From assembly GCA_021773275.1 (NCBI GenBank), contig JAJFKJ010000013.1, positions 2,092 to 66,091 on the forward strand: 64,000 nt of DNA. The letters run 5' to 3'. This document shows, piece after piece, positions 9,550 to 31,343 of the stretch (its first letter is position 1; each line of letters begins with the position of its first letter). Origin of the DNA: Gammaproteobacteria bacterium (GTDB taxonomy: Bacteria > Pseudomonadota > Gammaproteobacteria > JABCZS01). A program made the translations under genes and the position numbers. Under the pieces are notes generated by a model. It made no database searches, had not been told where the DNA came from, and worked only from the letters and a program-made list of their open reading frames with translations.

Positions 9550-11520
9550 TTATCCCACCCACGCGTATAACCACCACGACATCAAGCCCAATAGGCCGAT
9601 AATCATGATTTGGACATATTGATTTAAGAAACCGCTTTGCACATAACGTGAAAGCTTTGCGATGCGCCCCACTAAGTGCGCCGAACCATTAACCATGGCG
9701 CCATCGATGATTTTAATATCACCGACCTTCCAAGCCACGTTGCCGACACCCCGTGTGCCCTTGCCAAAAAACCAATCGTTAAAGATATCAAAACCGTATT
9801 TTTCAACAAGGATTTTGTAGATGATCGAAAAATGGTTTTTGATTTTTTCAGGTATACCCGGCCATTTAATATAAAGCGCCCACATCAGGGCAATGCCGCC
9901 TACGGCTAACCAGAACACTAAGGTCATCGGTGCATGCAAAGTAAATGCCAAGGCACCATGAAAGTGCTCACCCAGCTTTGCTAATACATCGTTTTGTGGC
10001 AGCACGTATAAGCTCGGGTTCAAGAATGCATGCTCAGCAAACAACATTGGGCCAATTAAGATATACCCGATAACCAGCGAGGGGATCGCTAATAAAATCA
10101 GTGGCACGGTCACTACCCACGGCGATTCTTTTAAGTGTGATTTTGTTTTATCGTCCATTCTTGGTTTTGTATGGAAAACCATAAAGAACAAACGGAAGGT
10201 ATAAATTGCTGTTACTAATACACCGGCAACCGCAGCAAAGTACGCATAGCCTGCGCCTGGTATTGTCGAAAGCTTTACGGCTTCGATAATCGAATCTTTT
10301 GAGTAGAAACCTGCAAATGGCGGAATACCTGATAATGCCAAAGAACCTATCAACATCGTAATATAAGTGATCGGCATGTAACGCCACAAACCACCCATCT
10401 TACGCATGTCTTGCTCGTGATGCATCGCGATAATCACCGAACCCGCACCCAAGAACAATAATGCTTTAAAGAACGCATGTGTCATGAGGTGGAAAACACC
10501 GGCTGCGTAGGCCGACGCACCGACCGCAATCATCATATATCCGAGCTGCGACAAGGTTGAATATGCAATGACGCGCTTGATATCGTTTTGCACAATACCT
10601 ACTAAGCCCATAAATAAAGCGGTGGTACCACCAATCACCAAGATAAACGTCAGCGCTGCTGTCGACTGCTCAAACAGCGGCGACATCCGTGCGACCATAA
10701 ACACACCTGCCGTTACCATCGTGGCGGCATGGATAAGTGCTGAAATAGGTGTGGGGCCTTCCATTGAATCCGGTAGCCAGACATGCAGCGGCACTTGCGC
10801 TGATTTACCCATCGCGCCGATGAACAATAAAATACAGGCTGCGGTTGCCATTGAAACCGTGGTACCAGACCATAAGGTTAAGGTTTCGTTAGAAAGTAAT
10901 TCCGCATGACCAAACACTTCGCCGTAGTTAAGCGAGCCGAACACCAAGAACACGGCCGCGATACCTAATAAGAAACCAAAGTCGCCGACGCGGTTAACGA
11001 TAAATGCTTTAAGGTTGGCATAAATTGCTGTTGGGCGTTTAAACCAAAAACCGATCAGCAAGTACGATGTCACACCTACAGCTTCCCAGCCAAAGAACAG
11101 CTGCATAAAGTTATTCGACATCACCAGCATTAACATCGAGAATGTAAAAAACGCGATATAAGCGAAGAAACGTTGATAACCTGGGTCATCACACATATAA
11201 CCAATCGTGTAGATATGCACCATCAAAGATACAAAAGTGACTACGCACATCATTGCAATCGTCAGGCTGTCGATGTAAACGCCGACTTCTATCGGTATAC
11301 CGGCACTCTGCCCCCAGATGTATAAGGTTTTTTCAAAGACTTCGAAAGGTTGCGCGATGTAGATGCCCAGTATCCACACTGATGCTGCAAATGAAATAGC
11401 AACGGATGTAATCGTGATCCAATGCGCTGGCGGGCGGCCCATCACTCTACCCAATAGGCCAACGCTGATAGCGCCCGCTAGAGGTGCCAAAATAATAATT
11501 ATACTTAGCCAGGTTAACAT
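9550..11520 (-). CDS. nuoL: NADH-quinone oxidoreductase subunit L
   Basis: 656 aa, antiporter-like subunit with a long C-terminal extension. Confidence 0.9.
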   Translation of the reverse strand: MLTWLSIIIILAPLAGAISVGLLGRVMGRPPAHWITITSVAISFAASVWILGIYIAQPFEVFEKTLYIWGQSAGIPIEVGVYIDSLTIAMMCVVTFVSLMVHIYTIGYMCDDPGYQRFFAYIAFFTFSMLMLVMSNNFMQLFFGWEAVGVTSYLLIGFWFKRPTAIYANLKAFIVNRVGDFGFLLGIAAVFLVFGSLNYGEVFGHAELLSNETLTLWSGTTVSMATAACILLFIGAMGKSAQVPLHVWLPDSMEGPTPISALIHAATMVTAGVFMVARMSPLFEQSTAALTFILVIGGTTALFMGLVGIVQNDIKRVIAYSTLSQLGYMMIAVGASAYAAGVFHLMTHAFFKALLFLGAGSVIIAMHHEQDMRKMGGLWRYMPITYITMLIGSLALSGIPPFAGFYSKDSIIEAVKLSTIPGAGYAYFAAVAGVLVTAIYTFRLFFMVFHTKPRMDDKTKSHLKESPWVVTVPLILLAIPSLVIGYILIGPMLFAEHAFLNPSLYVLPQNDVLAKLGEHFHGALAFTLHAPMTLVFWLAVGGIALMWALYIKWPGIPEKIKNHFSIIYKILVEKYGFDIFNDWFFGKGTRGVGNVAWKVGDIKIIDGAMVNGSAHLVGRIAKLSRYVQSGFLNQYVQIMIIGLLGLMSWWLYAWVG

Positions 11521-19971: not shown

Positions 19972-20472
19972 TTATGTTCTAGCAATTGTTTCTGTTTGCT
20001 TGATTTTATTTTGCAACTGTAAAATACCCCATATCAACGCTTCCGCTGTCGGTGGGCAACCAGGCACATAAATATCAACCGGTACAATGCGGTCACAACC
20101 GCGCGTCACCGAATAAGAGTAATGGTAATAGCCGCCGCCGTTGGCGCAAGACCCCATCGAAATCACCCATTTTGGATCAGCCATTTGGTCATAAACTTTG
20201 CGCAATGCTGGCGCCATTTTATTGCACAGTGTACCGGCAACAATCATCACATCGGATTGCCGCGGGCTGGGGCGAAACACAACACCGAAACGATCAAGAT
20301 CGTAACGCGGCGCGGCCGCTTGCATCATTTCAACGGCGCAACAGGCTAAACCAAAAGAAACGGGCCATAATGAACTGGTGCGCGCCCAATTAATCAGCTG
20401 GTCCGCCGAGGTGGTGACAAAACCTTTTTTTAGTAAACCTTCTATTCCCATTCTAAGGCTCCTTTCTTCCAC
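19972..20472 (-). CDS. nuoB: NADH-quinone oxidoreductase subunit B
   Basis: 166 aa with CCAVEMM and [10 protein letters not shown] cysteine motifs (N2 cluster). The annotated start overlaps the nuoA end by 31 bp, so the internal Met (MGIEGL) may be the true start. Confidence 0.9.
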
Positions 20473-20798
20473 TCATATATAAAGCCGACGGTTAGCAATA
20501 ATAAAAATACACCCATGGCAAAAATGGCAGGCCAACCCAGTTGTTGAAAGACTACTGCCCAAGGAAATAAAAATGCGATCTCTAAATCGAAGATAATAAA
20601 TAAAATAGCGACGAGGTAAAAACGTACATCGAACTGTGCACGCGCGTCTTCAAAAGCTTCAAAGCCACATTCGTAAGGCGAGAGTTTTGCGGTATTGGGT
20701 TTGTTAGGGCCGAGCAACTTACCTAACACGATAGGTGCAACGCCGATGACCATGCCAACTGCAATGAATACCACGATAGGAAGATAGTTTTCCAACAT
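20442..20798 (-). CDS. nuoA: NADH-quinone oxidoreductase subunit A
   Basis: 118 aa, 3-TM protein, first gene of the operon. A 139-bp promoter region lies upstream. Confidence 0.9.
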
Positions 20799-20937: not shown

Positions 20938-21537
20938 ATGAGTCTTGCAGAATCACGTATTGATAACAGTAAAACCAAAAATGAAGAAAACTTCATACTT
21001 GCTTCTATCTATGCTTCGATCACTGCTTTCCCCTATTGGCTCATCGCTCGCCCTGCTTGGATCAAGAAAAACCCGAAAGAAACCGCTGGCGGTATGGTTG
21101 CAGCAGCTGGTGTATTATACGCCGTTAGCCACTTAGCAGGCTGGTTTTATGATATGAAAGATATCGACACCGACCGAGGCTGGAGCCCACCTGATGATTG
21201 GGAACCCCCTGTTTGGCCTGGCCCTGGCAAACCACCCGATTGGTGGCCATGGGAAGGCGCACCTACTGAAAATACAGGTGACAACGATTTTGGCACTTAC
21301 AACGAAAGTCACAGCTACGATATTTTTAGTGGTATGGATGAGACAGAGATATTCGTAACGCTTGTTCTCTTTGCAGTGGCCTTGGCTGCACTATTCAAAG
21401 CTTTCCAGTGGTGGAACAATAAAGAAAATGATGCCACAAGCACTGCGGCGCCGAAGCTGTTTAGCAACAGTAATGCAGATGATGATTTAAGTGTTGATAC
21501 TCCGGGTCTTGTTACAGATAGAACACCTAGGTTGTAG
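20938..21537 (+). CDS. Hypothetical membrane protein with a Pro/Trp-rich segment (PPDDWEPPVWPGPGKPPDWWPWEG)
   Basis: ATG at 20938 is preceded by GGAG (20925-20928); the ORF track starts earlier at a TTG. Hydrophobic helices lie on both sides of the P/W-rich low-complexity insert. The stop codon TAG is the GTAG head of a REP. Confidence 0.5.
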   Translation: MSLAESRIDNSKTKNEENFILASIYASITAFPYWLIARPAWIKKNPKETAGGMVAAAGVLYAVSHLAGWFYDMKDIDTDRGWSPPDDWEPPVWPGPGKPPDWWPWEGAPTENTGDNDFGTYNESHSYDIFSGMDETEIFVTLVLFAVALAALFKAFQWWNNKENDATSTAAPKLFSNSNADDDLSVDTPGLVTDRTPRL

Positions 21538-21690
21538 GGGTCGCATTGCATGCGACCCGGGTGGCATACAATGCCACCCCTACAATACCGCTCTCTGACG
21601 TTCGCGGCTCTCGTATTAAATCATTGCGAGATTAATAGCATATACGGTCTACATGCCATACAACCGCTTGCTCACGCGCGCGGCTCTGAC
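21534..21690. repeat. Composite repeat R1: REPIN doublet (21534-21583) plus a ~100-bp tail (tcattgcgagat ... caaccgctt ... gcgcggctctga)
   Basis: gtaggggtcgcattgcatgcgacccgggtggcatacaatgccacccctac, followed by sequence ~80% identical to 23100-23174. Confidence 0.7.
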
Positions 21691-21769
21691 ATAAGACAAG
21701 CGCAAGCAAATCTAGCAGATCATTTGCAAGCATCCCCCCTCCTAAATCTATGATAAAATCATCGCTCTA

Positions 21770-21852
21770 GCCGAAGTGGTGGAATTGGTAGACACGCCAT
21801 CTTGAGGGGGTGGTGGGCTTTGCCTGTGCGGGTTCGAATCCCGCCTTCGGCA
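21770..21852 (+). tRNA. leuU: tRNA-Leu(GAG)
   Basis: GCCGAAGTGGTGGAATTGGTAGACAC... is near-identical to the E. coli tRNA-Leu(GAG) 5' half. Anticodon loop CTTGAGGG, long variable arm, acceptor ends ...CTTCGGCA. CCA is not encoded. Confidence 0.85.
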
Positions 21853-21962
21853 GATTTCCTCAAACCCCACACATTTGATCTCAGAACGCACACAGTGAAT
21901 CTCCTAACAAAAGCCACCTAGTCGGCTGAAATCGCTAGGTAATTAACTAGATTCGTGGTAGT

Positions 21963-23033
21963 ATGGTAACTATGTTAAGTAGTACCGTATTACAGCAGTT
22001 TCGTAATATTTCTGGCTACGCCTATACCGCCACTTTAGCAGTAATGGCAGGCCTGGAAGTCTGGTCTACGTATGCAAGAAACGCAGAAGAGTTCGATAAC
22101 CAAATCGGTATTATCGATGAAGATACACCTGAAGCTGCACACCTTGTTGAAGTTGCACCAGCTGCTGAAGAAAAACCTGAAGTTGCGCAACTTGCTGAAG
22201 TTGCCCCAGCCGTTGAAACTACGCCACTTTTCGAATCAAATGAAAACTTACCTGTTACACCTGAAGTAAGAGAACGTTTTAATACGTGGTTGCGGGAAGC
22301 GATTAAAAAAGATATTAACATCAGCGAAGCTTATAAAATATGGAAAAAAGAAGACAAACCCGCTCACCATATATTTGCTTATGATCGTTGGCATGCGCTC
22401 CAGCAGCTAAGATTAGAAGAAGATTCAGCATATACTGACGCCTTTGAAATAAGCCAAGAAGCTATCGTTGCGCTTGCTACAAAACCAGGAGAAATCACTA
22501 CGCAAGAAATAGCTAATGCACGCATGCAAAGACACGAAGACCGTCAAAGAATACATCCAAAAAATATTATTCAAAAAAATGAATCCGGATTCTTTTCAGA
22601 TCGTGAAAAGTTTAGCTTGTCTGTATTTGGTTTTCTTTTGACCCTAGTAGCCGCTGGCTTCGGCATAGCTGCAGCAGAAGATGCATTTAATAACAACAGC
22701 TCCCAAATAGATGAATCGGGTGACTGCGTTAGCTTGCCTTACGAACCCGTTCGCCCTGGACCCGGGCCTGATCGCCCTGATCAAGATTTCTCTGATTTTG
22801 CTGTTGAGCAAGAAGGTTCTAGCGAAGGCTTTGAACTTGCAATGAACACCGAACTTGGTATTGCCTTGATTGCGGTTGTTAGCTTGATTGCATTACTGGC
22901 TGCTGCGGGCTTTGCGGCGTATCAAAATAATTCAAGTGCGACAACAAGCCCCGTTCGTGCTTCTGTTGATAGCAGTGGTGTTGATGTGCTTGATTCTGCA
23001 AATGTACAACCGTCTGCTTTGCGCCTCACTTAA
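21963..23033 (+). CDS. Hypothetical protein with tandem 16-aa acidic repeats and C-terminal hydrophobic segments (effector-like)
   Basis: 356 aa. DNA tandem repeat at 22128-22223 encodes PEAAHLVEVAPAAEEK / PEVAQLAEVAPAVETT. Two hydrophobic stretches near the C-terminus. The gene is flanked by composite repeats R1 and R2. Confidence 0.5.
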   Translation: MVTMLSSTVLQQFRNISGYAYTATLAVMAGLEVWSTYARNAEEFDNQIGIIDEDTPEAAHLVEVAPAAEEKPEVAQLAEVAPAVETTPLFESNENLPVTPEVRERFNTWLREAIKKDINISEAYKIWKKEDKPAHHIFAYDRWHALQQLRLEEDSAYTDAFEISQEAIVALATKPGEITTQEIANARMQRHEDRQRIHPKNIIQKNESGFFSDREKFSLSVFGFLLTLVAAGFGIAAAEDAFNNNSSQIDESGDCVSLPYEPVRPGPGPDRPDQDFSDFAVEQEGSSEGFELAMNTELGIALIAVVSLIALLAAAGFAAYQNNSSATTSPVRASVDSSGVDVLDSANVQPSALRLT

Positions 23034-23071
23034 GATTCAAAAAACCCTTGGCAATTACATTGCTGCGCAAT

Positions 23072-23174
23072 GTCGGGTCGCACAGGGTGCGACCCCTACG
23101 TTAAGATCATTGCGAGATAACAGCAGATACGTCTTGCATACCATGCAACCGCTTACTAGCGTGCGCGGCTCTGA
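23072..23174. repeat. Composite repeat R2: single inverted REP (ends cccctac at 23098) plus the same ~80-bp tail as R1
   Basis: gtcgggtcgcacagggtgcgacccctac, then taagatcattgcgagataacagcagatacgtcttgcataccatgcaaccgcttactagcgtgcgcggctctga. Homologous to 21584-21690. Confidence 0.7.
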
Positions 23175-23177
23175 TAG

Positions 23178-23528
23178 CTACTGTGGAATAGCAGGCTCAT
23201 CTACTTCGATGATGACTTCAGGTGCAGTTTGTTGCTGCTGCATCTGTACAGGTGCAACAGGAATTTCCGAAATACGTGCTGCTTTGCTACGCTGCACAGC
23301 AATACCGCTTAAGGTTAAGCTGGTGATAAAAAACGCTGTAGCAAGAATCGCTGTAACGCGGGTAAAAAAGTTACCGGAACCTTGGCTACCAAATAGTGTT
23401 TGAGAACCACCGGCACCGCCGCCGCTGCCGCCTAAAGCACCCATGCCGCCTTTACCTTGTTGCATTAACACCATCACGATCAGTGAACCGGCAATAACAA
23501 CGTGAATCATCAAAATTATTTCATACAT
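23178..23528 (-). CDS. secG: Preprotein translocase subunit SecG
   Basis: 116 aa with a Gly-rich loop between two TM helices. Downstream of tpiA, as in Pseudomonas and Legionella. Confidence 0.9.
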   Translation of the reverse strand: MYEIILMIHVVIAGSLIVMVLMQQGKGGMGALGGSGGGAGGSQTLFGSQGSGNFFTRVTAILATAFFITSLTLSGIAVQRSKAARISEIPVAPVQMQQQQTAPEVIIEVDEPAIPQ

Positions 23529-23531
23529 GTC

Positions 23532-24275
23532 TTAACTCGCTGCTTGTACGATAGCGGCAAAGGCTTCTGGCTGCAGTGCAGCACCACCAATTAAACCACC
23601 ATCAATATCTTTCTGTGAAAACAATGCTGCTGCATTATCAGGCTTAACACTGCCGCCATACAATATTTGTAGGCCTTCGGCAACTTCAGCATCTTGCTTG
23701 TGCAACCACTGGCGCAAGCTCTGATGCACTTCTTGCGCTTGCTCTGTGCTAGCAGCTTTGCCTGTACCTATCGCCCAAACAGGCTCATAGGCGAGCACAG
23801 CCTTGGCTAATGCCTTGATGCCACAACGCGCAACCACCGCCTTGAGCTGGCCCACAACCACGTCTTGGGTTTGCCCTTGCTCACGCTGGAACAGCGTCTC
23901 ACCAACGCACAGTACGGGAATTAAGCCCTTAGCCTGCACTTGCACAAATTTCTCAGCTACGTCTTCACTCGTTTCCGCACACATGGCGCGGCGCTCAGAA
24001 TGGCCAATGATAACATATTTGCAGCCCTGCTCGTGTAACATTTGGGCAGAAATCTGGCCTGTATAGGCACCTTCGGCATGGTCGCTGGCGTCCTGTGCGC
24101 CCAAGGCTACATTCGTATCAGCCAGATGGTGCTGCGCGGCGTGCAGGTACACAAATGGCGGGCAGATAGCAACCTCTGCTGTAAACGCTGTATCCGCAAG
24201 CTGCTCGCGATGAGCCACAACCAAATCAGCATTGCCGTTCATCTTCCAATTTCCGATAACCAGTTTTTGTCTCAT
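23532..24275 (-). CDS. tpiA: Triosephosphate isomerase
   Basis: 247 aa. Active-site context AYEPVWAIGTG and GGSVKPDN. Confidence 0.9.
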   Translation of the reverse strand: MRQKLVIGNWKMNGNADLVVAHREQLADTAFTAEVAICPPFVYLHAAQHHLADTNVALGAQDASDHAEGAYTGQISAQMLHEQGCKYVIIGHSERRAMCAETSEDVAEKFVQVQAKGLIPVLCVGETLFQREQGQTQDVVVGQLKAVVARCGIKALAKAVLAYEPVWAIGTGKAASTEQAQEVHQSLRQWLHKQDAEVAEGLQILYGGSVKPDNAAALFSQKDIDGGLIGGAALQPEAFAAIVQAAS

Positions 24276-24282
24276 GACTCCC

Positions 24283-25686
24283 TCATCTTGTTTTCATCTG
24301 AAAAGCATCCAACGTTGCATTGTTTTTATTATCGGTATACATCGCGTAATCATCGCCTGCACTCGGGTAGCACACGTATATCGTATTAACAGGTACGCCA
24401 CTGTACTCCCTGGGCTGCGATGAACAAAAACCAAACGCTGCTCGAATAGTGCTATCAATGCGACGCGAATAGTTATCGCTAAAATCTGGTCTAGCAATAA
24501 CATTGAGCACCACAATGCCATCAGGCTGCAATACTTTTTCGATATCTTTAAAATATTCTATTGTTACCAGATGCTGGGGTATCGCTAGCGGGCTGTTGTA
24601 AGCATCGACGACAACCACATCAAAACGTTTTTGGGTTGTTTGCAGATACTGCCTTGCATCTTGGGCAACAAACTCGCCGTGCACTGGGCCTGAAAAATGT
24701 TCTTCAGATATATCTTTGATATCTGGGTCAATATCGATGTATACAAAGCGATTGTTGTCTTGCGCATTTATGGTTAGGGTAAAGCCTCCTGCGCCGAGAA
24801 TTAGAATATCTGCATCATTCATATTTAAATCATTGAACAAGATACTTTTGATGGCTTCCACATAAGGATAACCGCGACCATACGTATCGAGCATGGAGCT
24901 ATAGCTGTTATTAATCTCGAGCTGTTTCACCAGATTATTTTCTGTTAGAAAGTTAGTGACACGATAATTCGCATAGTTATTGGTTTTCAAAAAATATGAT
25001 TTTTCAGTCGATGCATTGAGCATGACGGTAGCTGGCAGGACAAGCACCAAGGCCAAACCACAAACGATGGCATCGGCCCGTTTGCGAATTAAGAACGCGG
25101 CCAGGAATATCAGCAAAAAGGTATTAATGATCACGGTAGCCGCAACACCTAATAAAGTAAACAAGACTATGCTTGTCACTACTGCGCCCAAAAACGAACC
25201 CAGGGTGCTCATGTGCATAATGCGGCCACCAAGCAAACCCGTTTCGATTTCTTTACTGCCTGGGAATAAATGCAAAGTCAAAGGTACTGTTTGCCCCAAA
25301 AAATACACAAGAGGCGCCGTGATAAGCAATAAATAACTTAACAAGGGGATCATGTCATGAATAGGTAAGTAACGATAAGCCAGCACAAACCATTGATGAA
25401 TAAAAAAGTAAGACAAACCAAAGCCGATCAACACGGCTGAAATAAGAAGGTTACGCGCGAGTATTCTGGCATGATTTTCTTTGATCATGCCGCCTTTGCG
25501 ATAACCGTAAGCCAAAAACAACAAAAATATACCAATGATGATGCTGGTCACAACAACACTGTTACCAACGAAAGGGATCAGCTGCCTGATCGTTAAGATC
25601 TCCGCTGAGATAGTGACAAACCCTTCGATTAACACGATGGCGAGCAAAATGAATGCTTGAAGCTTCGTCCCTGAAATGTTGCGCAT
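24283..25686 (-). CDS. Polytopic membrane protein fused to a spermidine-synthase-like (AdoMet-dependent aminopropyltransferase fold) domain
   Basis: 467 aa. About 8 N-terminal TM helices, then DILILGAGGFTL ... FDVVVVDAY, characteristic of the SpeE-like fold. Confidence 0.65.
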   Translation of the reverse strand: MRNISGTKLQAFILLAIVLIEGFVTISAEILTIRQLIPFVGNSVVVTSIIIGIFLLFLAYGYRKGGMIKENHARILARNLLISAVLIGFGLSYFFIHQWFVLAYRYLPIHDMIPLLSYLLLITAPLVYFLGQTVPLTLHLFPGSKEIETGLLGGRIMHMSTLGSFLGAVVTSIVLFTLLGVAATVIINTFLLIFLAAFLIRKRADAIVCGLALVLVLPATVMLNASTEKSYFLKTNNYANYRVTNFLTENNLVKQLEINNSYSSMLDTYGRGYPYVEAIKSILFNDLNMNDADILILGAGGFTLTINAQDNNRFVYIDIDPDIKDISEEHFSGPVHGEFVAQDARQYLQTTQKRFDVVVVDAYNSPLAIPQHLVTIEYFKDIEKVLQPDGIVVLNVIARPDFSDNYSRRIDSTIRAAFGFCSSQPREYSGVPVNTIYVCYPSAGDDYAMYTDNKNNATLDAFQMKTR

Positions 25687-25705
25687 GCTTCCTTCCTTTT
25701 ACATT

Positions 25706-27061
25706 CTATACTGGTTCGTGCGTCAGCACGTTTTTCACAATGCCGGCAAGTACAGTGGCATTGTGACGCACTTGCTTGTTATCGCGGCCTTCGACCATCA
25801 CGCGCACCACAGGTTCGGTGCCAGAGCGGCGCAATAGCACCCGGCCATCACTGCCCATTTGTTTTTCTATATCTTCTATAGCTTTAACAATATCAGGCTG
25901 TTTTAGTGGGTCTTGCGAACACTTAACGGCAATGTTAATCATCACCTGCGGGTGCATCACTAATTCTGTTAGTGCATCGCGAAGTGATATTTTCCAAAAC
26001 TGTAATGCCTCTAGCACTTGCAAGGCTGCCATGATGCCATCACCTGTAGAGTTACGTTGCATTTGAATAATATGGCCTGAAGATTCGCCACCCAGTTGCC
26101 AACCCGCTTCTTGCAGAGCAGCCAAAACAAATTTGTCACCCACATTTGTGCGGGTAAACTTTAAGCCCATTTTTTTAATGGCTTGTTCAAGTCCGAGGTT
26201 ACTCATCTGGGTGCCTACAACACCTTTTTTAACTGTCTTTTTCTCAGCGCCATATTTGGCCATAATATACACAAGTTGATCGCCATCGATCACTTCGCCA
26301 GTGTGGTCAACCATAATTACGCGATCGCCATCACCATCGAAAGCGATGCCAACATCTGCTTTTTGCTTAACGACAGCTTGTTGAAGATTTGTTGTATATG
26401 TCGAACCACAATGGTCGTTGATATTCAGGCCGTTAGGTGAAACACCCAAGGTTTCGATTTGCGCACCGAACTGTGCAAACAATTGTGGCGCAATATGATA
26501 ATTTGCACCATTCGCGCAATCGACAATAATTTTTAAGCCATGCAGCGATAAGTTTTTAAATTGTTGTTTGCAAAAATCAATATAGCGTTGCTGCGCATTT
26601 TCGATGCGGTAAGCTTTACCCAAGTGATCGGGCGCAACCGTCACCAAAGGTATCGCTAAATGTTGTTCTATAAGTTGTTCAGTATCCGCATCCAACTTTT
26701 CACCTTTGCTGGAGAAAAACTTAAAGCCATTATCCGTGTAAGGATTATGAGAAGCGCTGATGACAATACCTGCATCGGCTTTCAATTCTCGGGTTAAGTA
26801 AGCGATGCCTGGCGTTGGCATAGGGCCTAATAAACAAACATCAACGCCCGCTGCAGACAAACCTGCTTCCAGTGCTGACTCGAACATGTAACCCGAGATA
26901 CGTGTATCTTTACCGATCACAACTTTGCTGGTGCCTTGTTTTGCCAATACTCGCCCTGCAGCCCAGCCTAGCTTTAAAATATAATCTACGGTAATGGGTG
27001 CTTCACCTACGCGACCGCGTATGCCATCGGTGCCAAATTTTGTTTTGAAAGTCATTGTCAT
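25706..27061 (-). CDS. glmM: Phosphoglucosamine mutase
   Basis: 451 aa. FGTDGIRG, and the phospho-Ser loop SASHNPYTDNGFKFF. Confidence 0.9.
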   Translation of the reverse strand: MTMTFKTKFGTDGIRGRVGEAPITVDYILKLGWAAGRVLAKQGTSKVVIGKDTRISGYMFESALEAGLSAAGVDVCLLGPMPTPGIAYLTRELKADAGIVISASHNPYTDNGFKFFSSKGEKLDADTEQLIEQHLAIPLVTVAPDHLGKAYRIENAQQRYIDFCKQQFKNLSLHGLKIIVDCANGANYHIAPQLFAQFGAQIETLGVSPNGLNINDHCGSTYTTNLQQAVVKQKADVGIAFDGDGDRVIMVDHTGEVIDGDQLVYIMAKYGAEKKTVKKGVVGTQMSNLGLEQAIKKMGLKFTRTNVGDKFVLAALQEAGWQLGGESSGHIIQMQRNSTGDGIMAALQVLEALQFWKISLRDALTELVMHPQVMINIAVKCSQDPLKQPDIVKAIEDIEKQMGSDGRVLLRRSGTEPVVRVMVEGRDNKQVRHNATVLAGIVKNVLTHEPV

Positions 27062-27863: not shown

Positions 27864-27877
27864 CTTGTTACTAGCCC

Positions 27878-27962
27878 AAATCCCCCGATAATGACTGCGT
27901 CATTATCTGCCCGCCTTACAAAAGGGGGGCGATTAAAATAAATATTACGCCGTCCCCCCGAG
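27878..27962. repeat. Family-2 structured repeat (copy B), overlapping the ftsH stop codon
   Basis: aatcccccg-[gataatgactgcgtcattatc]-tgcccgccttacaaaaggggggcga. Shares both conserved flanks with copies at 543-589 and 38924-38986, but the internal palindrome differs. Confidence 0.6.
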
Positions 27963-30542: not shown

Positions 30543-31325
30543 GCGCCAGCGAACGAGCAGCTGAATCAGCGATATAGCTTCTGCAGCTGCAAGCTTTTAA
30601 CTCATCTGATCGCGCACTAGCGTTTGCGCTCGCTTAATAACTTGTCGCAAGCACATGGGCGAGCGTGAGCGCCAGCGAACGAGCAGCTGGGCCTTCTGTT
30701 GTGAGATAAAGCTAAAAATAGTACCATGCAAAGAAAAGAGAATAATATGAATAGCAATAACCCATATGCATACTTTATAACGTTCACTTGTTATGGTGCA
30801 AGATTACACGGTGATGCTAGAGGCACAGTTGATAGACATCACAATATCATTGAAACACCCTGTATAACACAGAATATTAAACGCAGCTCTTTGGCAAAAG
30901 CAAGAATGAAAGGTAAAAATTATTTGCTTGATGCACCAAGAAGAGACATCGTGCTAAAAGAAGTTAAAAGAACCTGTACATATAATAACTGGCTTCTAAT
31001 TGCAGCTCACATTAGATCAAATCATGTTCACATTGTTTTACGCGCAATGGAACCTCCTGAGTTTATACTAAAGCAATTAAAATCCTACATATCACGTTCA
31101 TTAAATAAACATTTTCCTGAAGATAAAACAAGAAAAAAGTGGACAAAACACGGAAGCACTCGATATATATGGGCTCCCTTACTTGTCGAAGCAGCCATTG
31201 AATATGTTCTACAGAGGCAAGGCAAACCCATGAGTATTTATTCGAATTCAGATTACATGAAAAATATGATTGATGACCTTGATTCATTGCTCATCTGATC
31301 GTTCGCTAGCGCTCACGCTCTCTTA
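30543..31325 (+). mobile_element. RAYT (REP-associated tyrosine transposase, IS200/IS605-like HUH) gene with structured flanking repeats, including perfect 22-bp inverted repeats (30655-30676 / 31302-31323)
   Basis: Left flank: gcgccagcgaacgagcagctg occurs twice (30545, 30663), and ctcatctgatcg (30591) recurs at 31292. Inverted repeats gagcgtgagcgccagcgaacga / tcgttcgctagcgctcacgctc bracket the ORF. The element sits in the rlmE-yhbY divergent intergenic region. Confidence 0.65.
30726..31298 (+). CDS. RAYT/IS200-like HUH single-tyrosine transposase
   Basis: 190 aa. YAYFITFTCYG matches the RAYT N-terminal motif (YYIKGGTWFFT in E. coli YafM). HUH motif is SNHVHIVL. The tyrosine motif TRYIW...IEYVLQRQGKP corresponds to the RAYT DYIYINPVKHG motif. 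Confidence 0.65.
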   Translation: MQRKENNMNSNNPYAYFITFTCYGARLHGDARGTVDRHHNIIETPCITQNIKRSSLAKARMKGKNYLLDAPRRDIVLKEVKRTCTYNNWLLIAAHIRSNHVHIVLRAMEPPEFILKQLKSYISRSLNKHFPEDKTRKKWTKHGSTRYIWAPLLVEAAIEYVLQRQGKPMSIYSNSDYMKNMIDDLDSLLI

Positions 31326-31343
31326 CGTGATATACTCCCCCTT

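What the first reader, a model, noticed from the sequence alone, without database searches (positions are those of the whole stretch)
21534..23177. tRNA-Leu(GAG) plus a repeat-containing secreted-like gene, bracketed by two copies of a ~100-bp composite repeat, next to secG in rearranged synteny
R1 (21534-21690) and R2 (23072-23174) share a REP plus an ~80-bp tail (tcattgcgagat...caaccgctt...gcgcggctctga) in direct orientation. They flank tRNA-Leu(GAG) and a 356-aa gene with 16-aa acidic tandem repeats. In E. coli and Pseudomonas, leuU lies directly downstream of secG on the same strand. Here the tRNA is on the opposite strand and separated from secG by the bracketed gene. This suggests repeat-mediated inversion or insertion at a tRNA-associated hotspot. 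Fragments of the tail modules also occur at 4551-4584 and 36841-36870.
Basis: partly seen in the sequence, partly recalled or inferred. Interest (0 to 1): 0.55.

Follow-up and report, generated by a model that had tools for sequence, protein, structure and literature searches.

The report
Inverted tRNA-Leu cassette among REP repeats
In this uncultured gammaproteobacterium the tRNA-Leu gene that almost always follows secG is flipped and now sits in front of a lineage-specific membrane-protein gene; this is an old, inherited rearrangement whose junctions are filled with ordinary REP-type repeats, and the two repeat copies that were flagged did not cause it.

Summary
R1 and R2 share a GTAG-type REP hairpin plus a 70-nt tail (81% identical, blastn E about 1e-13) in direct orientation. 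They bracket tRNA-Leu(GAG) and a 356-aa ORF. The tRNA is on the strand opposite secG.

This is derived. tRNA-Leu(GAG) follows secG on the same strand in 39 of 40 proteobacterial loci and in five relatives (TpiA 64-85% identical).

It is also old. A relative (contig L172, TpiA about 80%) has the same order: nuoA(-), ORF207 ortholog(+), tRNA(+), ORF356 ortholog(+), REP array, secG(-). That relative lacks the 70-nt tail at both junctions. The tails are direct repeats and arrived after the inversion, so they did not mediate it.

The tail is a mosaic built from a 47-nt hairpin module (M). M is dispersed: it also occurs at 36834, and in a relative's ftsH-folP spacer where the window has none. A Y1-transposase-like gene lies at 30726-31298.

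A REP positionally shared with relatives sits at the secG-side breakpoint, so REP-associated inversion is plausible but unproven.

ORF356 and ORF207 are real, fast-evolving paralogous membrane proteins and are not shown to be secreted.

Verdict: an ordinary BIME/REPIN-like repeat landscape at an unusual but fixed rearrangement. Interest is modest.

The parts
20442..20798 (-). nuoA, first gene of the nuo operon. A sigma-70-like promoter lies at 20858-20829.
   Evidence: Pfam Oxidored_q4, E 1e-40. Promoter-like site TTGTCT-18-TATAAT with a TG motif.
20938..21537 (+). ORF207 (199 aa from the ATG at 20938). A lineage-specific membrane protein with a Pro/Trp-rich loop. Its stop codon lies inside the GTAG of the first REP.
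   Evidence: Only a self hit among 5.8e9 proteins. No Pfam or NCBIfam family. A positional ortholog, ORF235, exists in L172 (Smith-Waterman score 152, z=16).
21534..21583 (.). REP doublet (REPIN/BIME-like): GTAGGGGTCGCA-N5-TGCGACCC followed by its inverted partner.
   Evidence: Arms of 27 nt, 89% complementary. 89% identical to REP doublets in L172 and L083.
21585..21633 (+). Module M, copy 1 (AACCGCT-loop-CGCGGCTCTCGTATTAAATCATTGCGAG).
   Evidence: 87% identical to a copy in the ftsH-folP spacer of L083. Profile score 46 bits, but this copy was in the profile's training set.
21615..21689 (+). Tail of R1 (unit U). It consists of the 3' end of M copy 1, a 28-nt spacer, and the 5' hairpin half of M copy 2.
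   Evidence: 81% identity over 70 nt to 23106-23174, E about 3e-13. Only two copies in the window and none in the relatives' loci.
21662..21708 (+). Module M, copy 2 (diverged). Its 3' part (GCGGCTCTGACATAAG) is positionally conserved upstream of the tRNA in L172.
   Evidence: Profile score 34 bits, but this copy was in the profile's training set. Alignment to L172.
21724..21754 (+). Putative promoter of the tRNA. The -10 TATGAT(AAA) at 21749-21754 is conserved in L172. TTGCAA lies 19 nt upstream.
   Evidence: Conserved block 21741-21984 versus L172 8294-8550, 73% identity. Promoter function is inferred; the simple scan did not call it.
21770..21852 (+). tRNA-Leu(GAG), inverted relative to secG and nuoA. 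CCA is not encoded.
   Evidence: ARAGORN and Rfam, 53 bits. Identical to the canonically placed tRNA of L090.
21963..23033 (+). ORF356. Layout: variable N-terminal linker with a 16-aa x 2.1 tandem repeat (22118-22217), a conserved helical region, a membrane helix, a DCVxLPYEPxRP...PGPGPDRPDQ loop, a second membrane helix, and a tail.
   Evidence: One homolog among 1.84e9 representative proteins (P0123, E 4e-40). Alignment. Tandem repeat. C-terminal half paralogous to the ORF207 family (z=9.4, 0/3000 shuffles). AF2 model unusable (pLDDT 38.6).
23075..23099 (.). REP of R2 (head ...CCCCTAC). It is followed on the secG-sense strand by GGGTTTTTT, so it probably acts as a bidirectional terminator between secG and ORF356.
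   Evidence: Positionally shared with the REP after secG in L083 and L090. Terminator role is inferred.
23100..23174 (+). Tail of R2 (unit U). It ends 3 nt before the secG stop codon. Its distal part is an M-type hairpin (23147-23182).
   Evidence: Profile hit E 1.5e-5 for a copy that was not used to build the profile. Absent after secG in L083, L090 and L089.
23178..23528 (-). secG, preceded by tpiA (23532-24275), a spermine-synthase-like membrane protein gene, glmM, folP and ftsH.
   Evidence: Pfam SecG. Same upstream synteny in L083.
36834..36871 (+). Another copy of module M (the half CGCGGCTCTCGTATAAACTTATCGCAGG), upstream of a solute-binding-protein gene.
   Evidence: blastn E 0.003. Profile score 30 bits, but this copy was in the profile's training set.
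30726..31298 (+). Y1 (HUH) transposase-like gene, a possible RAYT. It is flanked by 36-nt direct repeats (30601 and 31290) and an inverted copy (30652-30692). Given here as context for the repeat families.
   Evidence: Pfam Y1_Tnp, 32 bits against a cut-off of 23. Below the NCBIfam cut-offs for IS200 and REP_Tyr_transpos. Flanking repeats.

Best explanation
This is a fixed, lineage-specific remodelling of the otherwise near-universal tpiA-secG-tRNA-Leu(GAG)-nuoA junction.

In this clade of uncultured Gammaproteobacteria, two fast-evolving paralogous membrane-protein genes (ORF207 and ORF356) occupy the secG-nuoA spacer on the opposite strand. The tRNA gene sits between them, flipped. It has its own conserved -10 element and lies directly upstream of ORF356. 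tRNA and ORF356 therefore probably form one transcription unit in place of the usual secG-leuU co-transcript (inferred).

The non-coding junctions are filled with two families of short hairpin repeats:
- classical GTAG-type REPs, often as inverted doublets (REPIN/BIME-like);
- a second 47-nt module, M.

R1 and R2 are two copies of a mosaic made of a REP, the 3' end of one M, a spacer, and the 5' hairpin of the next M.

The inversion predates the split from a relative that has the same gene order but lacks the 70-nt tails. The tails are therefore later additions (local copying, gene conversion or insertion of repeat modules). They are not the agents of the inversion and not att-like scars.

The most likely mechanism for the original event (inferred, about 35-40%) is inversion of a [tRNA-ORF356] cassette by recombination at inversely oriented REPs. 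One breakpoint lies within about 40 nt of a REP that is orthologous in canonical and inverted genomes.
For: Canonical order:
- 39/40 loci carry tRNA-Leu(GAG) on the same strand right after secG.
- So do the relatives L089 (14 nt after secG), L090, L085, L174 and L176.
- In E. coli, secG and leuU are co-transcribed (PMC2241853).

Same inverted order in a second organism:
- L172 reads nuoA(-), ORF235(+), tRNA(+), ORF341(+), REP array.
- Its array units are about 99% identical, by my reading of the two sequences, to the array that follows secG in L083 from the same sample.
- There is no tRNA within 229 nt after secG in L083.

Orthology of the unit:
- Window 21741-21984 versus L172 is 73% identical.
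- ORF356 versus P0123 gives E 4e-40.
- ORF207 versus ORF235 gives z=16.

Paralogy of the two ORF families: z=9.4, 0/3000 shuffles.

Tails:
- They are in direct orientation.
- They are absent from L172 and L083 at both junctions.

Repeat families:
- REP occurs 6 times against 0.09 expected.
- The GTAG head and inverted doublets are present, matching the published REP/BIME definition (PMC3333891).
- M shows an insertion polymorphism in the ftsH-folP spacer.
- A Y1-transposase-like gene lies in the window.

Other:
- The REP after secG is positionally shared by the window, L083 and L090.
- Base composition is not unusual.
- Independent assemblies cover tRNA-ORF356-REP and REP-secG identically (L082 and L001).
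Against: - The phylogeny does not fit a single event cleanly. TpiA, a 551-column concatenate (informative sites 15 vs 8 vs 5) and the tRNA sequence itself (window identical to L090; both lack encoded CCA) place the window nearer to the canonical L089/L090 than to the inverted L083/L172. This needs a reversal, a two-copy ancestor with differential loss, or recombination between lineages.
- L172 and L083 are joined only through a repeat array, not by a contiguous contig.
- No read-level or genome-wide data exist for the window's organism. The copy number of U and M outside 64 kb is unknown.
- The REP role in the inversion rests on position only.
- Promoter function and co-transcription are inferred.
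Confidence: 0.7

Rival explanations
1. Recombination between the R1 and R2 composite repeats inverted or inserted the tRNA-ORF356 segment at a tRNA-associated hotspot.
For: - R1 and R2 sit exactly at the two junctions of the segment that differs from the canonical order.
- The REP parts of R1 (first REP) and R2 are inverted relative to each other (26 nt, 81% complementary).
Against: - The 70-nt tails are direct repeats. Recombination between them would delete or duplicate the segment, not invert it.
- L172/L083 have the same arrangement without the tails.
- There is no integrase, and the repeats do not duplicate the tRNA 3' end.
Confidence: 0.1
2. This is a duplication-based origin, similar to a tandem-inversion-duplication (TID). 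A snap-back or template-switch event at REP hairpins produced direct-inverted-direct copies of [ORF207-like gene + REP + tail + tRNA]. Later deletions kept the two direct ORF copies (ORF207 and ORF356, each followed by REP and tail) and only the tRNA from the central inverted copy. The original tRNA after secG was lost.
For: - ORF207 and ORF356 are paralogous in their C-terminal halves and in direct orientation.
- Each is followed by REP and then the tail, in the same order and orientation.
- The tRNA between them is inverted.
- A transient two-copy state would also explain why the window's tRNA is identical to the canonically placed tRNA of L090.
Against: - The divergence does not match. The ORFs share about 25% of amino acids, yet the tails are 81% identical in DNA.
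- The tails are absent in L172, which has both paralogs.
- The model needs many steps.
- No remnant of a tRNA or of an inverted ORF copy is visible.
Confidence: 0.2
3. This is a mobile-cassette model. A circular element carrying one tail plus tRNA-Leu plus ORF356 integrated by recombination at a resident tail next to secG (Campbell-type), producing the flanking direct repeats. The resident tRNA was then lost.
For: - Direct repeats spaced 1485 bp apart bracket exactly the tRNA and ORF356.
- ORF356 is nearly an orphan.
Against: - The cassette is at the same place, with orthologous flanks, in a relative whose ORF356 ortholog is only 36-40% identical. That is vertical inheritance over a long time.
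- The tails are missing in that relative.
- Base composition matches the flanks.
- No recombinase gene is present.
Confidence: 0.05
4. This is an assembly artefact. The MAG contig was mis-joined at the repeats, so the inverted tRNA is not real.
For: - Short-read contigs of the same organism break at the R2 REP and inside the tRNA.
- REP arrays break contigs in the relatives too.
Against: - Logan contig L082 (21786-23086) independently joins the tRNA body, ORF356 and the REP in the window's orientation. L001 (23070-26805) joins REP, tail and secG.
- L172, from another sample, spans nuoA through the ORF356 ortholog uninterrupted with the same order and strands.
Confidence: 0.03

Closest known systems
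REP / BIME elements of E. coli and their Y1 transposase TnpA_REP (PMC3333891; PMC2817692)
   Same: - A short imperfect palindrome with a conserved GTAG 5' of the stem.
- Strictly intergenic, often at the 3' ends of genes.
- Occurs singly and as inversely oriented pairs separated by conserved linkers, building mosaics and arrays.
- A Y1-transposase-like gene is present nearby.
   Different: - The stem sequence (GGGTCGCA...TGCGACCC) is specific to this lineage.
- The mosaics include a second, non-GTAG hairpin module (M) and a 70-nt unit seen only twice.
- The Y1 gene here is a weak match: it is below the NCBIfam RAYT cut-off, and its flanks are a third kind of repeat rather than the GTAG REP.
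REPINs and RAYTs of Pseudomonas fluorescens (PMC3116915; PMC3337134)
   Same: - REP doublets in inverted orientation act as the repeated unit.
- The family is conserved between related genomes (89% identity between window and L172/L083 doublets).
- Presence/absence differences occur at orthologous sites (shown here for module M).
   Different: - Genome-wide population structure cannot be assessed from 64 kb.
- Mobility is inferred from one insertion polymorphism only.
The secG-leuU operon of E. coli (PMC2241853)
   Same: The same two genes and the same tRNA isoacceptor (anticodon GAG). The surrounding synteny ftsH-folP-glmM-tpiA-secG is also shared.
   Different: - Here the tRNA is on the other strand, 1.3 kb from secG, so it cannot be co-transcribed with secG.
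- It has its own conserved -10 element.
- It precedes a protein-coding gene.
tRNA-led mixed operons such as thrU-tyrU-glyT-thrT-tufB of E. coli (my own knowledge, not checked here)
   Same: A tRNA gene lies directly upstream of, and is co-oriented with, a protein gene, with no predicted terminator between them. The spacer is conserved.
   Different: Co-transcription has not been shown here. The downstream gene is a lineage-specific membrane protein of unknown function.
tRNA-targeted genomic islands and integrative elements
   Same: There is extra DNA next to a tRNA gene, flanked by direct repeats.
   Different: - No integrase is present.
- The repeats do not contain the tRNA 3' end.
- Base composition is native.
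- The segment is vertically inherited and includes the only tRNA-Leu(GAG) copy seen.

Membership tests
REP / BIME / REPIN repeats | Imperfect palindrome of about 20-40 nt with a conserved GTAG tetranucleotide 5' of the stem | tested here: met
   GTAGGGGTCGCA-N5-TGCGACCC at 513, 4585, 4652, 21534, 21559, 23075 and 48878. Definition taken from PMC3333891.
REP / BIME / REPIN repeats | Many copies, confined to intergenic DNA | tested here: met
   6 pattern matches against 0.09 expected in shuffles. All copies lie between the long ORFs. The genome-wide count cannot be tested.
REP / BIME / REPIN repeats | Pairs in inverse orientation separated by short linkers; clusters and arrays | tested here: met
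   Doublets at 21534-21583 and 4585-4676. Arrays after secG in L083 and at the end of L172.
REP / BIME / REPIN repeats | A cognate Y1 transposase (RAYT/TnpA_REP) flanked by the same REPs | tested here: inconclusive
   A Y1_Tnp-like ORF at 30726-31298 passes Pfam (32 vs 23 bits). It is below the NCBIfam REP_Tyr_transpos cut-off (23.7 vs 80). Its flanking repeats are not the GTAG REP. Their similarity to module M is at noise level (7 bits, E 0.7; shuffles reach 10 bits).
REP / BIME / REPIN repeats (applied to the tail U and module M) | Dispersed hairpin module that varies in presence at orthologous sites | tested here: met
   M has a conserved CCGC/GCGG stem with a variable loop. Copies lie at 21585, 21662, 23147 and 36834, and in L172 and L083. 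M is present in the ftsH-folP spacer of L083 but absent from the window's orthologous spacer. The full 70-nt U is seen only twice. M has no GTAG.
tRNA-targeted integrative island | Integrase or recombinase gene within the bracketed segment | tested here: not met
   The only ORF in the segment, ORF356, has no Pfam or NCBIfam family. Neither does ORF207.
tRNA-targeted integrative island | Flanking direct repeats that duplicate the 3' part of the tRNA | tested here: not met
   R1 ends 80 nt upstream of the tRNA 5' end. No tRNA-derived sequence occurs in R2 or elsewhere in the window.
tRNA-targeted integrative island | Foreign base composition and patchy distribution among close relatives | tested here: not met
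   GC is 0.39-0.49 inside the segment against about 0.45 outside. The cassette is conserved in place in L172, with an ortholog at 36-40% identity.
Invertible DNA switch (inverton) | Inverted repeats at both ends of the segment | tested here: inconclusive
   Only the REPs qualify: 21534-21559 versus 23074-23099, 26 nt, 81% complementary. The longer tails are direct repeats.
Invertible DNA switch (inverton) | Both orientations present within one population; an invertase nearby | not testable with these tools
   No read data are available. No recombinase is seen in the locus. The contig break inside the tRNA at 21786 is explained by a co-occurring tRNA variant (T/C at 21785).
secG-leuU co-transcription unit | tRNA-Leu(GAG) directly downstream of secG on the same strand | tested here: not met
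   In the window the tRNA is on the + strand and secG on the - strand, 1325 nt apart. The feature is met in 39/40 loci and in L085, L089, L090, L174 and L176.

The most novel reading that the evidence does not exclude
The [tRNA-Leu(GAG)-ORF356] cassette may be a REP-bounded segment that has changed orientation or position more than once among closely related lineages. This is suggested by a conflict. The inverted state occurs in the window and in L172. The canonical state occurs in L089 and L090, which by TpiA and by tRNA sequence are nearer to the window. In the same reading, module M/U would be a second, non-GTAG hairpin repeat family mobilised by the divergent Y1 transposase at 30.7 kb. Together these would show REP-type elements repeatedly re-wiring transcription of a single-copy tRNA.
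Probability: 0.12. Interest if true: 0.55.

Novelty: new member of a known kind. Interest (0 to 1): 0.28.

Why it matters
The secG-tRNA-Leu(GAG) linkage is one of the most conserved gene-tRNA adjacencies in Proteobacteria, seen here in 39/40 loci plus five relatives. In E. coli it is a single transcript.

This clade shows that the linkage can be broken stably. The tRNA gains its own promoter and becomes the leader of a lineage-specific membrane-protein gene.

The locus is also a compact example of how REP/BIME-type repeats accumulate and turn over at rearrangement junctions. It is a caution that repeats bracketing a rearranged segment need not have caused the rearrangement.

It does not reveal a new kind of system.

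Tried and rejected
1. Metagenome scan with the tRNA sequence returned nothing. My pattern had 11 N where the variable arm needs 10, so this result is void and says nothing.
It recovered no close relative (best NuoC 63%).
3. Genome-collection scan with TpiA found no relative above 57%. It was useful only as a broad synteny sample.
4. ORF207 has no homolog by word-indexed search. Its ortholog was found only by position in L172.
5. The AlphaFold2 model of ORF356 built from a 2-sequence alignment had pLDDT 38.6, so no fold search was run.
6. Rfam found nothing beyond the tRNA. The mir-33 hits on the REP doublet are below threshold and spurious.
7. The tail does not behave as a structured RNA. The folds are dominated by REP hairpins. 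Only one compensatory pair separates R1 from R2, and the internal TTGCAT/ATGCAA hairpin of R2 is not kept in R1.
8. The tail does not behave as coding sequence. All seven codon differences in the shared frame change the amino acid (read directly from the sequence).
9. I tried to link module M to the flanks of the Y1-transposase gene. nhmmer gave 7.0 and 5.7 bits, within the range of shuffled controls, so this is inconclusive.
10. I tried to assign the truncated ORF after the tRNA in L090 to the ORF207 or the ORF356 family. It gave z=6.7 and z=4.2 respectively, which is ambiguous.
11. I tried to resolve the phylogeny of window, L089, L090 and L083. The 551 columns gave informative sites of 15, 8 and 5, which is unresolved.
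Full report
**What is in the sequence**

The region reads, on the + strand:
- nuoA (20442-20798, -);
- ORF207 (20938-21537, +);
- R1;
- tRNA-Leu(GAG) (21770-21852, +);
- ORF356 (21963-23033, +);
- R2;
- secG (23178-23528, -);
- tpiA, a spermine-synthase-like membrane protein gene, glmM, folP and ftsH, all on the - strand.

R1 and R2 each contain a REP hairpin, GGGTCGCA-N5-TGCGACCC, with a GTAG/CTAC head. R1 carries an inverted doublet at 21534-21583. R2 carries a single copy at 23075-23099.

Each REP is followed by a tail. The tails 21620-21689 and 23106-23174 are 81% identical over 70 nt with one indel. They are in direct orientation. blastn gives E about 3e-13 against the window.

The 48-nt tandem repeat in ORF356 is real: 2.1 copies at 82% identity.

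**How unusual the tRNA orientation is**

I sampled 40 proteobacterial loci retrieved with TpiA. In 39 of them tRNA-Leu(GAG) follows secG on the same strand within about 60-900 nt of the end of tpiA. The fortieth contig ends too early to tell. In E. coli the two genes are co-transcribed (PMC2241853).

The source organism has no close relative among the species-representative genomes (best TpiA 57%). The large protein collection does hold relatives with TpiA identities of 85% (L089), 82% (L090), 80% (L083/L084) and 66-64% (L085, L174, L176).

L089, L090, L085, L174 and L176 all have the tRNA on the secG strand, 8-60 nt after the stop codon. In L085, nuoA follows immediately. The window's state is therefore derived.

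**The same derived state exists in a second organism**

An exhaustive HMMER scan of 1.84e9 representative proteins found exactly one homolog of ORF356. This is P0123: 341 aa, E 4e-40.

Its contig, L172 (10 kb, from the same sample as L083 and L090), reads:
- nuoG..nuoA (-);
- ORF235 (+);
- a REP-like hairpin;
- tRNA-Leu(GAG) (+);
- ORF341, which is P0123 (+);
- M-type modules;
- a REP array at the contig end.

About 100 nt of that array match, with one mismatch by my reading, the array that begins 60 nt after secG in L083. L083 shows no tRNA in the 229 nt after secG. L172 and L083 are therefore very probably the two sides of one locus.

Other evidence for orthology:
- ORF235 is the ortholog of ORF207 (Smith-Waterman score 152, z=16).
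- Window 21741-21984 (the -10 element, tRNA, spacer and start of ORF356) is 73% identical to L172 8294-8550.

The inverted tRNA-ORF356 unit is thus orthologous, old and vertically inherited. Base composition is also unremarkable.

**What the repeats are**

The REP is a textbook REP by the published definition: a GTAG tetranucleotide 5' of an imperfect palindrome, and inverse pairs forming BIMEs (PMC3333891). It occurs 6-7 times in 64 kb against 0.09 expected. It is always intergenic. Its doublets are 89% identical to those of L172 and L083.

The tail breaks down into pieces of a second module, M, of about 47 nt: AACCGCT-loop-CGCGGCTCTCGTAT.AA.T.AT.GCGAG.

R1 consists of:
- the REP doublet;
- M (21585-21633);
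- a 28-nt spacer;
- a diverged M (21662-21708).

R2 consists of:
- a REP;
- the last 19 nt of an M;
- the spacer;
- the hairpin half of an M, which abuts the secG stop codon.

M also occurs at 36834 in the window, three times in L172, and once in the ftsH-folP spacer of L083. The window's orthologous ftsH-folP spacer lacks it. This is an insertion/deletion polymorphism that marks M as a dispersed, probably mobile, element.

The complete 70-nt unit (U) was found only at R1 and R2.

No Rfam family matches. The tail shows no convincing conserved RNA structure or coding signal (and direct reading).

A Y1 (HUH) transposase-like gene lies at 30726-31298. It is flanked by its own short repeats. It is absent from the corresponding rlmE-yhbY spacer of L083. 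It is a weak match to RAYT models. Its flanks resemble M only at noise level.

**Did R1 and R2 cause the rearrangement?**

They did not, for the tails.
- They are direct repeats. Recombination between them would delete or duplicate the segment, not invert it.
- L172/L083 have the same gene order but lack U at both junctions.
- Upstream of the tRNA, L172 keeps only a different REP-like hairpin and 'GTGGCTCTGAAACAAG', which aligns with the end of the window's second M.
- After secG, L083 has an unrelated hairpin where the window has U.

U therefore spread or was copied after the inversion.

REPs remain candidates. A REP directly after secG is positionally shared by the window, L083 and the canonical L090. 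In L090 the tRNA follows it. In the window the 3' end of ORF356 follows it within 40 nt. The breakpoint therefore coincides with a REP. The first REP of R1 and the REP of R2 are inversely oriented.

The simplest model is a single inversion of a [tRNA -> ORF356 ->] cassette lying between secG and a convergent ORF207. It would give exactly the present order. It would keep the conserved tRNA-ORF356 linkage.

**What does not fit**

Several lines place the window nearer to the canonical L089/L090 than to the inverted L083/L172:
- TpiA identity: 85% and 82% against 80%.
- A 551-column concatenate: informative sites 15 for (window, L089), 8 for (window, L083), 5 for (L083, L089).
- The tRNA itself: the window and L090 are identical and both lack an encoded CCA, while L172 and the outgroup L085 encode CCA and share a variable-loop base.

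SecG gives no clear signal.

If that tree is right, one of three things must have happened:
- the inverted state is ancestral and L089/L090 reverted;
- an ancestor carried two inversely oriented tRNA copies that were lost differentially;
- the region recombined between lineages.

A duplication-based (tandem-inversion-duplication-like) origin would also explain two facts. ORF207 and ORF356 are paralogous in their C-terminal halves (z=9.4). Each is followed by REP and tail in the same order. It does not explain why the tails are so much better conserved than the ORFs, or why L172 lacks them.

The truncated convergent ORF after the tRNA in L090 resembles both paralogs and cannot settle the question.

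**The genes**

ORF356 and P0123 share these features:
- the start MVT...;
- a helical region (residues about 90-200);
- two membrane helices;
- a strictly conserved loop motif DCVxLPYEPxRP...PGPGPDRPDQ.

The acidic tandem repeat lies in a non-conserved linker. There is no conserved signal peptide. The protein is therefore a membrane protein of unknown function rather than a secreted one.

ORF207 and ORF235 share a Pro/Trp-rich loop (PPDWEPP.WP.PG.PP) between membrane helices. No family, defence-system or structural assignment was possible.

**Artefact check**

Independent short-read contigs from SRR15505519 reproduce two stretches exactly: 21786-23086 (tRNA body, ORF356, REP) and 23070-26805 (REP, tail, secG and beyond). 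L172 spans the whole equivalent region in another sample.

The contig break at 21786 coincides with a T/C difference between tRNA variants of co-occurring relatives. It is not evidence of structural heterogeneity.

**Verdict**

The finding is a real, derived but fixed rearrangement of a very conserved gene-tRNA junction. It is decorated by REP/BIME-like mosaics that are new members of a known kind. The specific causal reading, in which the two composite repeats mediated the event, is not supported. REP involvement at the breakpoints is plausible but only positional. Interest is modest. The unresolved conflict between phylogeny and arrangement is the one point worth following up.

Noticed in passing
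window 30601-31329: A 190-aa Y1 (HUH) transposase-like ORF (30726-31298) has an HVH motif. It passes Pfam Y1_Tnp but is below the NCBIfam IS200 and RAYT cut-offs. It is inserted between rlmE/ftsJ and yhbY, and the corresponding spacer in L083 is only about 200 nt. It is flanked by 36-nt direct repeats (30601 and 31290, 81% identical), by an inverted copy (30652-30692), and by a perfect 21-nt direct repeat (30543 and 30669).
   Followed up: partly
L083 6362-6409 versus window 27864-27944: Module M is present in the ftsH-folP spacer of the relative but absent from the orthologous spacer of the window. The rest of the spacer is conserved (CCCCCGATAATGACTGCGTCATTATCTGCC). This is a clean insertion/deletion polymorphism.
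   Followed up: yes
window 21852-21855; L090 1253; L172 8405-8407; L085 11283-11286: The tRNA-Leu(GAG) gene does not encode its 3' CCA in the window or in L090, but it does in L172 and L085. The window and L090 also share a T in the variable loop where L172 and L085 have an A.
   Followed up: partly
window 24283-25686 (-); L083 8590-9993; L085 8621-9994; L174; L176: A 457-469-aa protein lies between glmM and tpiA throughout this clade. It has many N-terminal membrane segments and a spermine/spermidine-synthase-like methyltransferase domain. It interrupts the usual glmM-tpiA adjacency.
   Followed up: no
L083 10748-11233: SecG of the 80% relative is 161 aa, against 112-126 aa in the others. The difference is a Q/P/A-rich insertion before the conserved C-terminal PAIPQ.
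   Followed up: no
window 568-590, 27908-27932; L090 1268-1290; L172 9775-9800; L083 11262-11282: A third hairpin family, GCCCCCTTT..AAAGGGGGC, recurs at gene ends in the window and in relatives. It is probably a shared terminator-type repeat.
   Followed up: no
window 609-2870 (-) and 4772-5203 (-): A 753-aa protein has protein-kinase domain hits and a weak TCAD9 (ternary-complex-associated domain) hit. It lies next to tRNA-Met and a REP. A PIN-domain protein lies next to the REP doublet at 4585-4676.
   Followed up: no
window 21535-21537: The stop codon of ORF207 (TAG) is part of the GTAG head of the first REP. The REP insertion therefore defines the present C-terminus of the protein.
   Followed up: no
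L172 9677-9786: Two M modules lie in inverted orientation back to back, forming a palindrome of about 100 nt. This is the M-family counterpart of a REP doublet. A further M-type hairpin at 9610-9643 is in the orientation opposite to the window's R2 copy.
   Followed up: partly
(method note): My tRNA pattern for the metagenome scan had one N too many (11 where the variable arm needs 10). The zero-hit result carries no information.
   Followed up: yes
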